64,000 nt of DNA from Clytia hemisphaerica (GCF_902728285.1 NW_027103826.1:244759-308758); one strand, 5' to 3'. Shown: positions 1 to 11,521, numbered from the stretch's first letter. The notes: a model not told the origin generated them from the sequence alone. A program made the numbers and translations.

Positions 1-464
1 TTTCAAAGTCCGGAAATTACGTCACCATTCATTGTAGCTCTGATGCCAATCCAGTTCTCATGATCCTGAACCTCTCATTAAGTGTCTTGTTTATGATTTG
101 CTGCACCGTATTAGCCTTCAAGACGCGTCGTTTCCCGAAGAATTACAACGAGGCTAAATACATCGGTCTCACTTTGTATATAACCTGCGTCGTATGGTCA
201 CTTTTCCTACCAATCTTCTTCCTAACGCGTTCGGTCGATTATGATTTCCTTCGTGAATACCTAATGTGTATCGTATGTATTTTGATCGGTTTTGTCACGC
301 TTTTCGGAATGTTTGGACCAAAGATCATTATGATATATCATGCGCCGCCACAGGGATCGAGCCAAGGAAGCCTCCCGACATGGTATATAACAAATTCAAG
401 AGACGAAACAGAACATGACCGTGAAAATACCGCTTTCACAACCATAACACCTGAGCGATCTTAA
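1..464 (+). CDS. Class C (metabotropic glutamate receptor-like) GPCR, 3' terminal coding exon. It is partial, because the exon begins upstream of the window; the frame starts at nt 3 and the TAA stop is at 462-464.
   Basis: The translation reads ...IHCSSDANPVLMILNLSLSVLFMICCTVLAFKTRRFPKNYNEAKYIGLTLYITCVVWSLFLPIFFLTRSVDYDFLREYLMCIVCILIGFVTLFGMFGPKIIMIYHAP... This matches the TM5-ICL3-TM6-TM7 signature of mGluR/class C receptors (KTRxxPxNFNEAKxIxFTMYTTCIIWLAFxPIxF ... PK). The open frame is continuous from position 3 to the stop. Confidence 0.75.
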   Translation, partial: SKSGNYVTIHCSSDANPVLMILNLSLSVLFMICCTVLAFKTRRFPKNYNEAKYIGLTLYITCVVWSLFLPIFFLTRSVDYDFLREYLMCIVCILIGFVTLFGMFGPKIIMIYHAPPQGSSQGSLPTWYITNSRDETEHDRENTAFTTITPERS

Positions 465-2512: not shown

Positions 2513-2962
2513 ATGCCAATTACTCCTGAAGACTTTATCTGTTATCTAAGTATTCTTAGCGATGAGATTAATCTTAAAGTTGGAATCCCACAACACTTCA
2601 AGGGCGGAATCATCACAGGTACATCAGCTACAGTGGGCGGCTTTTGTGGCGGACCTTTGGGAGTCTTAATGGGCGGTGCTTTCGGAGGAACGTTAGCTGC
2701 AATCAGTTGTAAGGACCAACAAAAATATGTTAAAGATGTTTTACTAACATTGAAACGAGATGAAAGATATTGTATTTATGAATATTTCAAGACAAACTTA
2801 CTGGAACACGAATTTGGAAAATGTAAGAGTTATTCCGAATTGAGCTCTCGATTAGAACGAGATTTGGATTTGAAACATGACGTCATTCGAGTTTTAAAAG
2901 AGTTTGTTGTTGGTCAATGGAAAGTGCAGATCATCGATGAACGTTTGGGAAATCATAAATAA
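2513..2962 (+). CDS. C19orf12-like glycine-zipper membrane protein (149 aa), apparently a single exon.
   Basis: ATG-to-TAA ORF. The segment KGGIITGTSATVGGFCGGPLGVLMGGAFGGTLAAIS matches the C19orf12 glycine-zipper core ([34 protein letters not shown], recalled from memory). The overall length is similar to C19orf12, about 150 aa. An AATAAA overlaps the stop codon. Confidence 0.6.
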   Translation: MPITPEDFICYLSILSDEINLKVGIPQHFKGGIITGTSATVGGFCGGPLGVLMGGAFGGTLAAISCKDQQKYVKDVLLTLKRDERYCIYEYFKTNLLEHEFGKCKSYSELSSRLERDLDLKHDVIRVLKEFVVGQWKVQIIDERLGNHK

Positions 2963-7305: not shown

Positions 7306-9378
7306 CGTGTATTTTCATACGGAAAACGTGTAAAAAATTGAAGAATCCAACTTACGTGATCAGGCGGTCTTAATAATTCACTGAGCATTCGAACTTCTTT
7401 AGGATTCGATAACAATGCACCAGAACGTCTGAAAATGCAAGATTAATAAAAATTTGAAAATAAACTTTTTCCAGATAATATTGTGTACAGAGGCGTTTTA
7501 AAGGACGAAATTTTGGCGGAAAGTAAATTTGGCGGAATACACCTATTTCCTATTAGCAGATTCATGCAAAAGTCACGAAAAAACGTCGAGTAAACAAACT
7601 TTTGATTGGCGGAGGCATGCAAAGATTACCTCATACTCAGGACATTTGGAAAAATATGCTTGTATATGCAATATTTCAGCCAATCAGAGACTTTCTCGAC
7701 GTTTTTCGTGACTTTTTTACATGAATCCGCTAATAGGAAATACGTGTATTAAGTTCACAACAAAATTTATTGTTGCGCCATTCACCAAATTAAATTTCCG
7801 CCAAAATTAATTTTTCATAATATTCACAAAATCCTAATATTTAGTTACGATTTTTGGTAAAAAATATCCTGCATCTAGCCGCCCACCCAACCCCCTCCAA
7901 AATTTCTTTATTTGGTCATCCACAAAATCAAATTCCCGCCAAAGTTTCTTCCTTTAAGGTATATCATTGTTTTGAAAACTAACTTAGGACATGCAGATTT
8001 TTAGTCACTTAGATGACCATTCACCCCAAACAAGCATTATTCAAGACCATTTAGAACTCTACTAGATCAAGCAACTGATCAAAATTCAATTACAACAGAT
8101 GGTCTTTGCAATAGTGCTTTGTTGAGAAAATGATTTTCTCATAAAATTTCCTAGTTTTTTTGGTGATATGGTTATCGGTGAGAAGTATTTTGCGGTTCTG
8201 ATCAACTTTTTCAGCTTTCTAGGCGATTTTATATCCTAGATACCAAAAATATCCCAAAAAAGTTTAAAAAGGTATCACATAATGAAGGCTCATTTAAAAT
8301 TGGAGAAAGTCTTATGTAACATTTTTTCAGGAAAATTCTAGTGAATTCATCAGCATGATCTAGAAGGAAAAAAGATAGAGATTTTCTTACATTTTGTACT
8401 TCAACACATCCAGTGCACGTTTTTGTGAAAACTTTCTTCGCTCACAAGCATTTTTTATAAGTTGCCTGTGAAATAGAATAATAAAATGATTCGATTTAGT
8501 GCAAAAATACATTCAAGCCGGTTGTTTAATGTCCTACAGTATGCTATCCACACCTCTGTCTCACAGCCCAGACCCCGGTAGAAGTTTTCCACTTACGTGT
8601 CAAACTCGTGTCGATCATCATCCCATTTTCGTTTGGCTGCTTCAATGATATCTTCATATGTTTCACTGTCTGGTGTTTATTTGTCAATGCAATAGAATAG
8701 TCAAGGAAAGACTGTTTCTCACTGTGGTAGCTTTATTTTGGTGACCCTACTGAGCTTTAGTATAGGCCCTAGAGGCAGTTTCTTAATCCTCGTCAACCAA
8801 AATTCTTTGATTGGAGTGTTTTTGAAAGTGGTACCCTAATGGCAGCACTACTCTATAGCGGTGTAAATACATCGACAGCATCACTAGATCAACTTTTTCT
8901 CGAATATCTTTGATTCCCAAATTCTAAGGCTTTCTTACCTACCTACTAGCTAAAAACTGGACACTTTTAATTATCGGAGAAGTCTCACACGCCTCGACCT
9001 TTACCGTATATACCCTGGACCAATTTTCTCAATCCCGGCAAAGCAAAATCTTTGACCGTAGTTTTTTGAAAAAAGGTATCTAATGGCGGCACTACTCAAT
9101 AGTGTGTAAATGCATCGAAAGCGCTAGATCTACTTTCCCTTGAAAACTTTTGATGATGTAGCGCCGTTAGACGTTAATTTTAACAGTGCAAAGGCTTCTT
9201 TACGGGTACCAATTCAAAAAGAATTTCGATCAAAGATGGCAGATATAGCTTGATCCAGGGATATATAAAGGTCGGTGGCCTGATGGCAGACTGCCTGATG
9301 GAGTGCATTGGATCTGCCATGGAGATAAAGTTAGATGATATAAGTGATCAAATCGAATAAGTGAGTTGACTATCTATA

Positions 9379-9552: not shown

Positions 9553-10837
9553 CTGAAAAAAGAGAGAGAGTAGTAGCAAAACATTGATACACAAAGAGCT
9601 AATGAAAACATATAGCTGTAAGAATTTCCAAAGGTTTTGCAGACTATAGATATGCGATTTCTTAGGAAACACCAAAATCAAAATAAGAAAGATCATGGTG
9701 GCCAACCATACTCTTGTCTCCCGAATAGACGTCCCCCCCCGCTAATTGTTAAGAGCAAAAAAAAGCCACCCCCCTGCTCTTATTAAGACCCCCCTGCTAA
9801 TTAAATTTGAATAATTAATTTTTTTATTACAGTGTAGATAGACCTTAAACTTGTTAAAATTTTCCTTTTTGTTAGTATTGGTTCTTATTTTACGTGTTCA
9901 TTTGTTAAAGTTTCACTTTTGTTGTCGAAATTGATATCAGTTAAAAAAATTATGTCTTCAAATTACCCCCCCCCCCCCCCTCTTATTCCATCCACCCCGC
10001 TTATTAGAATTTAGAAAATTTTCCTACCCCCTGCTTATTCGGACCCCCCCCCCCGTCTATTCGGGAGACAAGAGTATTTTAGGACCCATTTCAAGGGTTT
10101 CAAGGGTCATTTTGCATCAATTTTCAAGTGTTTCAAGGAAATTTTTAAGGGTACAAAAAAAAAGGCGTTTTCATGGATGTTTCAAGGGTTTCAAGGATTT
10201 CAAGGGTCGCTGGCCACCATGAAGATACGGTTAACTCTTGATGATTCAAACTCGAACAGTAGACCTAAATAAGTCCATTTATTTTAGCTACCAGGTGAAA
10301 AACCACCCTAAAGAGAGCCTATTTTAACAGGATATCCCCTAGATGGGAGCTAATAATTAGTTCCAAGTTCGAACTGTATGAAGAGATATCAGGATTTCAC
10401 TATATTTCAAAAAAGAATAAGACTTATAACGCTTATAACCCAAAAAATGTTAGGAATATAACAAACTTTTTAAGATTTCCTTAATGCATCAAGGATGAAC
10501 ATCAAAGAAGGGGAAACAGGGAAACAGACACTCAATCTTTAATAGGTTTTAGGAAGCAGTCGTACATGAAAAGATAAATTCAAGCCCTTGTATGGTGCTT
10601 TATAATATGTTTCGTTAAGACTAAAAGTTCAGAAAAATGTATGATACAAAAAATGAGATGGTACCTAAGAAATAAAATCGTAACAAAAGGTTTAAAAAGA
10701 TAAGATTACTAGACTGGAGTCGTTTATAATGCGTGTAATACAGTAGTATAGGCGTTATATGATAATACGATTAAAAAGATAAGATTACTAAAATTACTAA
10801 AACCTATCGTCATAACGATGGCCAGATTGGAAATAAT

Positions 10838-11521
10838 CTAAAGTTTATATAAAAGCGTGACCCCATCATCAACGCTCAACAAAGCCAAGTCAAATCGCTC
10901 ATCCTTGCCCAGTTTACGGTTCAGCGCATCAAGACAAATGGCACTCTCCTTGTAACGTGGCGTCCAGTCGCCGTGAGGGTCGAGAACGGAGCCCCGTTGG
11001 AGGACGTTATCAATAACGATGACGCCACCTTGACGTAAGAGGACGTGCGATCGATCAACGTAGTCTGAATATTCAGGCTTGTGTGCATCGATGTACACAA
11101 AATCAAAAGTTCCTGACTGGCCATCTTTAATTAGTTGATCCATCGTGTTTAAAGCTGGTCCGATCTTGATTTTGATTTTGTCTCGGACACCGGCTTTTTC
11201 GAAGAACGGGTATCCATGTTTGACGTAGTCCTCATTGATATCCAGAGCTATAACTTCACCGTCGTCCGGAATTGTTATAGCGCAGTTCAAAGCGTTGTAC
11301 CCAGTGAATGTTCCGACCTCCAAACATTTCTTACACCGGCTCATTTTTAGTAAAATACGGATCAACTGACATGCGGTAATGTCGGAAATCATGACGGATC
11401 TTTCGACGTTCTTCATTGTGTATTCGCGTAATTCTTTCAAGATTTCTGGTTCACGTTGTGACGTTTCAGCGACGTATTTCTCGACCGGCGTAAGGCCGTC
11501 CTTGTAAGGATCAATAGGCAT
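10838..11521 (-). CDS. SAM-dependent O-methyltransferase of the caffeoyl-CoA OMT / COMTD1 (class I, cation-dependent) family. It is intronless, 227 aa, counted from the first in-frame ATG (MPIDPY...).
   Basis: The ORF-track entry 10838-11590 starts at a TTG. The first ATG is at 11521-11519. Family motifs in collinear order across the ORF are: REPEILKELRE, EVGTFTGY(N)AL, DDGEVIALDI, KAGVxxKIxxxxGPAL, GTFDFVYIDAHK, GGVIVIDNVLxxGSV and DALNxxLxxDxRxDxxLLxVxDGxTL. There is an in-frame stop 9 codons upstream of the TTG. Confidence 0.8.
   Translation of the reverse strand: MPIDPYKDGLTPVEKYVAETSQREPEILKELREYTMKNVERSVMISDITACQLIRILLKMSRCKKCLEVGTFTGYNALNCAITIPDDGEVIALDINEDYVKHGYPFFEKAGVRDKIKIKIGPALNTMDQLIKDGQSGTFDFVYIDAHKPEYSDYVDRSHVLLRQGGVIVIDNVLQRGSVLDPHGDWTPRYKESAICLDALNRKLGKDERFDLALLSVDDGVTLLYKL

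What the first reader, a model, noticed from the sequence alone, without database searches (positions are those of the whole stretch)
10838..11521. Intronless caffeoyl-CoA/COMTD1-type O-methyltransferase embedded in transposon DNA
A complete 227-aa class I cation-dependent SAM O-methyltransferase is encoded without introns on the minus strand. Every other gene in the window is intron-rich, with 7 to 15 exons. It is flanked by MITEs at 9704-10084 and by the foldback element at 12040 onward.

Possible explanations are a processed retrogene of COMTD1, a horizontally acquired bacterial- or plant-like CCoAOMT, or a contaminant-like insertion. All of these are interesting for secondary metabolism in an animal genome.
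Basis: partly seen in the sequence, partly recalled or inferred. Interest (0 to 1): 0.55.

Follow-up and report, generated by a model that had tools for sequence, protein, structure and literature searches.

The report
Ordinary intronless jellyfish COMTD1-family methyltransferase gene
This is a real, already annotated and expressed Clytia hemisphaerica gene for a soluble catechol-type O-methyltransferase; it belongs to a hydrozoan-wide group of intronless COMTD1-like genes and is not a recent retrogene, a bacterial or plant transfer, or a contaminant.

Summary
The 227-codon ORF at 10838-11521 (-) is real. It is a full-length Pfam Methyltransf_3 domain (E=3e-58) and is identical to RefSeq XP_066919445.1 of Clytia hemisphaerica. 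A transcript-derived protein is 98% identical.

In a bootstrapped NJ tree it sits in a 93% clade of anchor-less 226-aa orthologues (62-73% identity). That clade lies inside a 97% clade with the N-terminally membrane-anchored COMTD1-like proteins of Clytia and Hydractinia. Bacterial and plant enzymes fall outside.

Every member of this clade that I could read on genomic DNA has an uninterrupted CDS: Clytia, two tandem Hydractinia copies and three environmental animal contigs. The scyphozoan, amphipod, hemichordate and fish homologues have 1-6 introns. Lack of introns is therefore a property of the hydrozoan clade, not of this locus.

I found no poly(A) remnant, no target-site duplication and no pair of inverted repeats bracketing the gene. 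It lies in 1.8 kb of unique DNA between a 370-bp MITE and a 2.1-kb foldback element.

The SAM-binding, metal-binding and catalytic residues are kept. The subfamily has lost the membrane anchor and reads DAHK where relatives read DADK.

Verdict: an ordinary, already annotated gene of low interest. The substrate is unknown, and the deep origin of the family relative to bacteria is unresolved.

The parts
10838..11521 (-). Complete single-exon CDS (227 codons plus TAG) of a soluble class I, cation-dependent SAM O-methyltransferase, identical to XP_066919445.1 of Clytia hemisphaerica.
   Evidence: ORF and translation. Pfam PF01596 E=3.4e-58. PDB hits. Exact match to RefSeq and UniProt. Conserved SAM motif I (LEVGTFTGY 67-75), D94, D145, K148 and D171-N172.
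11773..11780 (-). TATAAATA motif about 255 nt upstream of the ATG; a candidate core promoter for the gene (inference only).
   Evidence: Read directly from the sequence. No transcript data were available to place the transcription start.
10224..10837 (-). Unique 3' flank (3' UTR and downstream DNA). It has no T-run of 8 or more on the + strand, so no poly(A) remnant on the gene strand.
   Evidence: No other copy in the window. Homopolymer and direct-repeat scan. GC 0.316.
11522..12044 (-). Unique 5' flank (5' UTR and promoter region). It encodes no membrane-anchor segment.
   Evidence: No other copy in the window. tblastn with anchored paralogues aligns only from their residue 41-59 onward. 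The in-frame upstream extension ends at a stop before 11590.
9708..10077 (.). 370-bp MITE-like element with 24-bp perfect terminal inverted repeats, 760 bp downstream of the stop codon. It is a neighbour, not part of the gene.
   Evidence: Self-BLAST. Sequence.
12045..14169 (.). 2.1-kb non-autonomous foldback-type element with 242-nt terminal inverted repeats and 15-nt subterminal tandem repeats, 523 bp upstream of the ATG. It is a neighbour, not part of the gene.

Best explanation
The locus is a resident, expressed Clytia hemisphaerica gene for a soluble SAM- and divalent-cation-dependent O-methyltransferase of the COMTD1/CCoAOMT-like family (Pfam Methyltransf_3).

Origin. It belongs to a hydrozoan expansion of COMTD1-like genes whose coding regions lack introns throughout the clade. 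Within that expansion, a dispersed duplicate of an N-terminally membrane-anchored gene lost the anchor. This produced a subfamily of 226-227 aa, presumably cytosolic, that is conserved in several species. The intronless state was inherited from the hydrozoan ancestor, through loss of the one or few ancestral introns or through an ancient retroposition. It was not created at this locus. The flanking MITE and foldback element are ordinary neighbours in a repeat-rich genome.

Mechanism. This is inferred from conserved residues and homology to solved enzymes. SAM binds at motif I (LEVGTFTGY) and D94. A divalent cation held by D145, D171 and N172 positions a vicinal-diol (catechol-type) substrate. 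K148 acts as the base for methyl transfer to one hydroxyl. The substrate and the cellular role are unknown.
For: Shown:
- Full-length PF01596 domain.
- Identical to an annotated Clytia RefSeq protein, and 98% identical (4 substitutions) to a transcript-derived protein.
- The exhaustive HMMER search puts eukaryotic COMTD1-like proteins first (1e-67 to 1e-48) and bacterial-length proteins only from 3e-44 (names).
- NJ tree of 60 sequences, 220 columns and 200 bootstraps: 93% for the anchor-less clade (window protein plus P0002-P0006), 97% for the clade that also holds Clytia P0009 and P0304 and Hydractinia P0013, and 59% when the scyphozoans are added. Bacteria and plants fall outside.
- Group-profile scores for the window protein: 322 bits hydrozoan anchored, 244 scyphozoan, 257 bacterial, 238 bilaterian, 193 plant.
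- Shared derived DNxLQ motif in all hydrozoan-clade members, against DNxLW elsewhere.
- Uninterrupted CDS on genomic DNA in Clytia, in two tandem Hydractinia copies, on Tara metagenome scaffold L002 and on long environmental contigs L009, which has a THAP-domain neighbour, and L011.
- Introns are present in Rhopilema (1), Trinorchestia (4), Ptychodera and Engraulis (6).
- An N-terminal hydrophobic anchor with a similar G-rich sequence is present in the hydrozoan, scyphozoan, hemichordate, fish and human proteins. It is absent from the window protein, its orthologues and bacteria.
- Catalytic and SAM-binding residues are conserved.
- dN is 0.24 against the P0002 orthologue while dS is saturated, which points to long-term purifying selection.
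- No poly(A) remnant, target-site duplication or bracketing inverted repeats.

From the literature: vertebrate COMTD1 is a mitochondrial transmembrane O-methyltransferase whose molecular function is poorly understood (PMC10138217).
Against: - Deep nodes of the tree are unresolved. The catalytic domain is equally similar to bilaterian COMTD1 (41.1%) and to bacterial enzymes (40.9%). Vertical descent of the cnidarian clade from a metazoan COMTD1 therefore rests mainly on the shared N-terminal anchor.
- No intron position is exactly shared between cnidarian and bilaterian genes. The single Rhopilema intron lies 1 nt from an amphipod intron but in a different phase.
- The gene structure of the anchored Clytia paralogue (XP_066921404.1) could not be retrieved. 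An intron-containing parent in the same genome is therefore not excluded.
- Most clade members are unnamed environmental or SRA sequences. Their hydrozoan origin is inferred from tree position and low GC.
- GC3 (0.50) and CpG o/e (1.43) of the CDS are somewhat higher than in other ORFs of the window.
- The tree is NJ only; no ML or Bayesian program was available.
Confidence: 0.85

Rival explanations
1. Locus-specific processed retrogene. An mRNA of the membrane-anchored Clytia COMTD1-like gene was reverse-transcribed and inserted here, losing its introns, and later lost the 5' anchor-coding part.
For: The CDS has no introns. The gene lies on a different scaffold (619 kb) from the anchored paralogue P0009 (2.05 Mb), so the duplication was dispersed. 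The N-terminal truncation is compatible with 5'-truncated retrocopies. Transposable elements lie nearby.
Against: All hydrozoan-clade members read on genomic DNA, anchored ones included, already lack introns. Absence of introns therefore cannot identify a retrocopy here. No poly(A) tract or target-site duplication is present. Orthologues at 62-73% identity and saturated dS show that any such event is ancient. If the parent was itself intronless, retroposition and DNA-level duplication cannot be told apart.
Confidence: 0.1
2. Horizontal acquisition of a bacterial or plant CCoAOMT-like gene, either by the Clytia lineage or, in an older version, by the ancestor of the whole medusozoan clade independently of bilaterian COMTD1.
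For: In the word-indexed search the hits after the cnidarian ones are bacterial 220-aa proteins at 43-45% identity. The bacterial profile scores slightly higher than the bilaterian one (257 against 238 bits). Deep nodes are unresolved. The hydrozoan CDSs have no introns. No intron position is exactly shared with bilaterians.
Against: A recent transfer is excluded by nesting in the 97% hydrozoan clade and by the shared DNxLQ signature. For the ancient version, anchored cnidarian members share the N-terminal signal-anchor architecture and a similar G-rich TM sequence with hemichordate and vertebrate COMTD1, and bacteria lack it. The exhaustive search ranks metazoan COMTD1 above bacteria. Human COMTD1 itself is as close to the Coxiella enzyme (E=1.6e-55), so similarity to bacteria is a property of the whole family. 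CDS GC of 0.46 and GC3 of 0.50 do not indicate a foreign origin.
Confidence: 0.04
3. Contaminant or assembly artefact: foreign DNA mis-joined into the animal scaffold.
For: Single-exon ORF. The CDS has higher GC (0.456) than its surroundings (0.32-0.35).
Against: The flanks are typical low-GC host DNA with host-type transposable elements and animal genes on both sides. The same protein occurs in RefSeq and, as a 4-substitution allele, in an independent transcript-derived set. Paralogues and orthologues exist in Clytia, Hydractinia and scyphozoans.
Confidence: 0.01

Closest known systems
COMTD1 (catechol O-methyltransferase domain-containing protein 1) of vertebrates and other bilaterians; PDB 2AVD
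   Same: Same Pfam family (PF01596). About 41% identity over the catalytic domain and E=2e-37 to 2AVD. Its closest paralogues in Clytia and Hydractinia have the COMTD1 architecture, an N-terminal single-pass anchor followed by the OMT domain.
   Different: The window protein lacks the membrane anchor (227 aa against about 260 aa) and so is probably not membrane-tethered. Its CDS has no introns, against 6 in fish. It reads DAHK for DADK and DNxLQ for DNxLW. Orthology to bilaterian COMTD1 is not resolved by the tree.
Plant caffeoyl-CoA O-methyltransferase (CCoAOMT; PDB 1SUI, 5KVA) and PFOMT or norbelladine OMT-type enzymes
   Same: Same fold and family. E=3e-43 to 9e-42. SAM motif I and the metal and catalytic residues align. 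The RefSeq name 'probable caffeoyl-CoA O-methyltransferase 1' derives from this similarity.
   Different: Plants form a separate 100% clade and give the lowest profile score (193 bits). The loop that carries T63 and E67 of the alfalfa enzyme (residue roles from my own knowledge) is not conserved. Nothing indicates a CoA-ester substrate in an animal.
Bacterial class I cation-dependent OMTs ('YrrM-like', about 220 aa; e.g. Coxiella 3TR6, Legionella 3R3H)
   Same: Anchor-less, about 220 aa, 38-44% identity. Best PDB hit is 3TR6 at E=2.6e-44.
   Different: Bacteria cluster apart. The window protein shares derived motifs with hydrozoan genes and lies in animal genomic DNA.
Anchor-less scyphozoan homologue (Rhopilema esculentum XP_065062824.1)
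   Same: Also lacks the N-terminal anchor (224 aa). 46-48% identity.
   Different: It has one 22.9-kb intron. It keeps DADK and LW. It groups with the anchored Sanderia protein (94%) and not with the window protein, so the anchor was probably lost independently.

Membership tests
Class I cation-dependent SAM O-methyltransferase (Pfam PF01596 Methyltransf_3; CCoAOMT/COMTD1 type) | Full-length match to the family profile above the curated threshold | tested here: met
   196.8 bits against a cut-off of 22; profile positions 2-203 of 204.
Class I cation-dependent SAM O-methyltransferase (Pfam PF01596 Methyltransf_3; CCoAOMT/COMTD1 type) | SAM-binding motif I (xExGxxxGY) and the acidic residue at the end of beta-2 | tested here: met
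   LEVGTFTGY at 67-75 and D94 align with all reference enzymes.
Class I cation-dependent SAM O-methyltransferase (Pfam PF01596 Methyltransf_3; CCoAOMT/COMTD1 type) | Metal ligands Asp...Asp-Asn and the catalytic Lys. Residue roles come from published CCoAOMT, PFOMT and COMT structures (my own knowledge). | tested here: met
   D145, K148 and D171-N172 are conserved. The neighbouring Asp of DADK is His (H147) in this subfamily.
Class I cation-dependent SAM O-methyltransferase (Pfam PF01596 Methyltransf_3; CCoAOMT/COMTD1 type) | SAM- and Mg2+-dependent methylation of a catechol substrate | not testable with these tools
   Requires an enzyme assay.
Metazoan COMTD1 orthogroup | N-terminal single-pass signal-anchor preceding the OMT domain | tested here: not met
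   No hydrophobic segment before the domain in the window protein. The anchor is present in Clytia P0009 and P0304, Hydractinia P0013, Sanderia P0360, hemichordate, fish and human proteins.
Metazoan COMTD1 orthogroup | Phylogenetic placement with bilaterian COMTD1 to the exclusion of bacterial and plant enzymes | tested here: inconclusive
   It nests with anchored cnidarian COMTD1-like proteins (97%), but the deeper nodes have less than 60% support. Profile scores for bilaterian and bacterial groups are similar.
Metazoan COMTD1 orthogroup | Shared intron positions with bilaterian COMTD1 | tested here: not met
   The window gene has no introns. The only cnidarian intron found (Rhopilema) is 1 nt and one phase away from an amphipod intron and 5 codons from the deuterostome intron.
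Processed retrogene | Intronless copy of an intron-containing parent gene in the same genome | tested here: inconclusive
   The copy is intronless, but the Clytia parent locus could not be retrieved. Related anchored genes in Hydractinia and on environmental contigs are also intronless.
Processed retrogene | 3' poly(A) remnant and flanking target-site duplication | tested here: not met
   No T-run of 8 or more on the + strand in 10224-10838. The best flanking direct repeat is an AT-rich 10-mer.
Horizontally transferred gene | Nested within a donor clade and absent from sister taxa | tested here: not met
   It nests within hydrozoan genes. Homologues are present in Hydractinia and scyphozoans.
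Gene captured inside a transposon (Pack-MULE-like transduplicate) | Gene bracketed by the terminal inverted repeats of one element | tested here: not met
   All inverted-repeat pairs lie within 12045-14169 or within 9708-10077. None pairs the two flanks of the gene.

The most novel reading that the evidence does not exclude
The anchor-less DAHK subfamily (this gene plus P0002-P0006) may be a neofunctionalised, cytosolic catechol O-methyltransferase specific to a subset of hydrozoans. It would derive from the membrane-anchored, in vertebrates mitochondrial, COMTD1 lineage after a clade-wide intron loss or ancient retroposition, and would have altered substrate specificity through the His that replaces Asp next to the catalytic Lys. 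A weaker variant is that the whole medusozoan clade stems from an ancient bacterial transfer separate from bilaterian COMTD1.
Probability: 0.3. Interest if true: 0.25.

Novelty: already known. Interest (0 to 1): 0.12.

Why it matters
It matters little. The gene is already in RefSeq and UniProt with the same family-level name, and neither its origin nor its location is unusual.

Three modest points may be of use. Hydrozoans have an expanded, uniformly intronless COMTD1-like family. A soluble subfamily with an active-site variant (DAHK) has split off from it. COMTD1 is poorly understood even in vertebrates, so a soluble invertebrate paralogue that should be easy to express could help define substrates for the family.

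For the scan itself, the result is a caution. An intronless animal gene whose next-best word-indexed hits are bacterial is not by itself evidence of horizontal transfer.

Tried and rejected
- The look-up of encoding contigs returned nothing for the window protein or for the anchored Clytia paralogue P0009. The intron check on the in-genome paralogue could not be done.
- L010, which encodes P0278 (at least 90% identical to P0009), looks like a transcript: short 5' UTR and AATAAA near its end. I did not use it for intron inference.
- Intron-position conservation as a test of vertical descent gave no exact match between cnidarian and bilaterian genes.
- dN/dS could not be computed because dS is saturated.
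- The exact look-up of the C19orf12-like ORF failed, so I could not show a second single-exon gene in the window.
- No ML tree software was available. I used NJ with Kimura-corrected distances and 200 bootstraps.
- Literature searches for the gene or family in cnidarians found nothing specific.
- Considered and rejected: a role in mycosporine-like amino acid biosynthesis. This was a recalled lead only, and no DDGS, EEVS or ATP-grasp neighbour appeared among the window ORFs examined.
- Considered and rejected: capture of the gene within a transposon.
- The label 'Rhopilema_P0360' in the tree output is wrong. That protein is from Sanderia malayensis.

Full report
1. Observation

The minus strand carries an ORF from the ATG at 11521 to the TAG at 10838-10840, encoding 227 aa. 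It matches Pfam PF01596 (Methyltransf_3) end to end at E=3.4e-58. It matches solved class I cation-dependent O-methyltransferases: Coxiella 3TR6 at 2.6e-44, sorghum and alfalfa CCoAOMT at about 1e-42, and human COMTD1 2AVD at 2.3e-37. tblastn with paralogues finds no other OMT piece in the window.

The flanking repeats exist. One is a 370-bp MITE-like element at 9708-10077 with 24-bp perfect terminal inverted repeats. The other is a 2.1-kb foldback element at 12045-14169 with 242-nt arms and 15-nt subterminal tandem repeats. The gene itself lies in about 1.8 kb of sequence that has no other copy in the window (10224-12044). No inverted-repeat pair brackets it. 'Embedded in transposon DNA' is therefore an overstatement; the gene lies between two transposable elements.

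2. Identity of the window and the gene

The exact 227-aa sequence is RefSeq XP_066919445.1 / UniProt A0A7M5X8P2, 'probable caffeoyl-CoA O-methyltransferase 1 [Clytia hemisphaerica]', on a 619-kb contig. The EukProt transcript-derived protein TCONS_00067839 differs at 4 residues. The window is therefore hydrozoan jellyfish DNA, and the gene is already annotated and transcribed.

Other ORFs in the window include a class C GPCR exon, a C19orf12-like ORF and two astacin/ShK/mucin-like exons. GC is uniformly about 0.35 across the window.

3. Relatives

The word-indexed search returned, in order:
- unnamed 226-aa proteins at 62-73% identity;
- Clytia and Hydractinia paralogues at 52-56%;
- bacterial 220-aa proteins at about 44%.

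That ranking is misleading because the word filter missed animal COMTD1. The exhaustive HMMER search ranks eukaryotic proteins first (1e-67 to 1e-48): fish COMTD1, anchored cnidarian-type proteins, plant CCoAOMT and an amoebozoan. Bacterial-length proteins appear only from 3e-44.

I verified a recalled human COMTD1 sequence against 2AVD; it is identical over residues 36-262. Human COMTD1 is itself very close to the Coxiella enzyme (E=1.6e-55). Similarity to bacteria is thus a property of the whole slowly evolving family, not of this gene.

4. Phylogeny

I built an NJ tree of 60 sequences over 220 trimmed columns, with Kimura distances and 200 bootstraps.
- The window protein groups with P0002-P0006 at 93%. 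This is the anchor-less subfamily.
- That subfamily lies inside a 25-member clade at 97%, which also holds the named Clytia (P0009, P0304) and Hydractinia (P0013) proteins.
- Adding the two scyphozoan proteins, Rhopilema P0299 and Sanderia P0360, gives 59%. P0360 is mislabelled in the tree output.
- Bacteria (58%), plants (100%), vertebrates (91%) and amphipods (100%) form separate groups.
- Deeper nodes are unresolved.

Group-specific HMMs give the same picture. The window protein scores 322 bits against the hydrozoan anchored profile, 257 bacterial, 244 scyphozoan, 238 bilaterian and 193 plant.

One alignment signature supports the grouping. Every hydrozoan-clade protein shown in the alignment, anchored or not, reads DNxLQ (one, P0006, reads DNMLH) where the others read DNxLW (LR in the Coxiella enzyme; human COMTD1 has also lost the DN).

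5. Architecture

Clytia P0009 and P0304, Hydractinia P0013, Sanderia P0360 and the hemichordate, fish and human COMTD1 proteins all carry an N-terminal hydrophobic segment. Its Kyte-Doolittle 19-residue mean is 1.7-2.2, it lies within residues 6-32, and its G-rich sequence is similar across these proteins. The window protein, its orthologues, Rhopilema P0299 and bacterial proteins lack it.

This shared anchor is the best available argument that the cnidarian clade belongs with metazoan COMTD1. It also indicates that the window gene is a derived paralogue that lost the anchor. No upstream anchor-coding sequence is present.

6. Introns

The coding sequence is uninterrupted in every hydrozoan-clade member I could read on genomic DNA:
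- Clytia (this window);
- two tandem Hydractinia copies, L001 8001-8771 and 12281-13051;
- a Tara metagenome scaffold, L002;
- two long environmental contigs, L009 (with a THAP-domain ORF nearby, an animal-type domain) and L011.

Homologues outside the clade have introns. Rhopilema has one of 22.9 kb. Trinorchestia has four, Engraulis COMTD1 has six, and Ptychodera has several, two of which I mapped; one matches the fish position and phase exactly.

Intronlessness is therefore a feature of the hydrozoan clade and is inherited at this locus. The Rhopilema intron (phase 2, in the codon of R67) lies 1 nt from an amphipod intron (phase 0, after R66) and 5 codons from the deuterostome intron. There is no exact match, so this neither proves nor disproves common descent of the introns.

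7. Retrogene, HGT and contaminant hallmarks

- No poly(A) remnant and no credible target-site duplication were found.
- The CDS has GC 0.456 and GC3 0.50. Other ORFs in the window have GC3 of 0.21-0.47, and a Clytia-type paralogue transcript has 0.42. This is slightly high and gives no indication of foreign origin.
- CpG o/e is 1.43. I noted this and cannot explain it.
- dN against the P0002 orthologue is 0.24 with dS saturated. The gene is old and under constraint.
- The gene and P0009 lie on different scaffolds, so the duplication was dispersed. Whether it went through RNA or DNA cannot be told if the parent was already intronless.

8. Function and mechanism

Shown by alignment: SAM motif I (LEVGTFTGY), D94, D145, K148 and D171-N172 are conserved. 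Assigning these residues as SAM-binding, metal ligands and catalytic base rests on published CCoAOMT, PFOMT and COMT structures (my own knowledge).

Inferred: the protein is an active, soluble, Mg2+- and SAM-dependent O-methyltransferase acting on a catechol-type substrate.

The subfamily has His (Asn in P0004) in place of the second Asp of DADK, next to the catalytic Lys. This may alter specificity, but that is speculative.

Vertebrate COMTD1 is a mitochondrial transmembrane enzyme whose substrate is still unknown (PMC10138217). No paper in the searchable library discusses the family in cnidarians.

9. Verdict

It is an annotated, expressed member of a hydrozoan-wide, intronless expansion of the COMTD1/CCoAOMT-like family. 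It lacks the membrane anchor and sits between two unrelated transposable elements.

The remaining uncertainty concerns the deep origin of the family, the exon structure of the anchored Clytia paralogue, and the substrate.

Novelty: already known. Interest: about 0.12.

Noticed in passing
window 45556-47100 (-) and 53608-54411 (-): Two related long ORFs (514 and 267 aa). Each begins with an astacin C-terminal fragment and a ShK-like cysteine motif, followed by long Thr/Ser/Pro mucin-like repeats (STTNSQP units). Only the second ORF has weak Pfam support (ShK E=5e-4, Astacin E=1e-3); the first had no Pfam hit and is linked by sequence resemblance. They explain the strong GC and AT skew at 45-47 kb and 53-55 kb.
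   Followed up: partly
window 2513-2962 (+): A 149-aa ATG-to-stop ORF matching Pfam C19orf12-like (E=1e-13). It may be a second single-exon gene, which would contradict 'every other gene is intron-rich'. The exact sequence is not in the protein collection, so this is unproven.
   Followed up: partly
window 60-464 (+): Terminal exon of a class C (7tm_3) GPCR (E=1.4e-20). The gene continues beyond the left edge of the window.
   Followed up: no
L001 (Hydractinia symbiolongicarpus CM055247.1) 8001-8771 and 12281-13051: Two tandem intronless COMTD1-like copies, 94.5% identical. The second has an in-frame TAG at codon 41 although it is annotated as a spliced 296-aa product. It may be a decaying duplicate or a mis-annotation.
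   Followed up: partly
window 10838-11521 (-), residue H147: The anchor-less subfamily reads DAHK (DANK in P0004) where all other family members examined read DADK (DAEK in P0008), next to the catalytic Lys. All hydrozoan-clade members shown read DNxLQ (DNMLH in P0006) where most others read DNxLW.
   Followed up: partly
window 10838-11521 (-): The CDS has CpG o/e of 1.43 and GC3 of 0.50. Both are higher than in the other ORFs of the window (GC3 0.21-0.47) and in a paralogue transcript (0.42). Unexplained; this may reflect expression-linked codon bias.
   Followed up: partly
Human COMTD1 (PDB 2AVD) in the alignment: Human COMTD1 reads LR where fish, hemichordate, cnidarian, plant and bacterial enzymes have the metal-binding DN pair. 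This raises the question of whether the mammalian protein binds metal in the canonical way.
   Followed up: no
L003 (Rhopilema esculentum SWAQ01000448.1) 6201-29094: The single intron of the scyphozoan homologue is 22.9 kb long. It contains a KDZ-transposase ORF and another 662-aa ORF.
   Followed up: no
window 9694-9708 and 10211-10222: Short inverted motifs (CATGGTGGCCA / TGGCCACCATG) lie just outside the MITE at 9708-10077. This hints at a nested or outer MITE spanning about 9693-10223.
   Followed up: no
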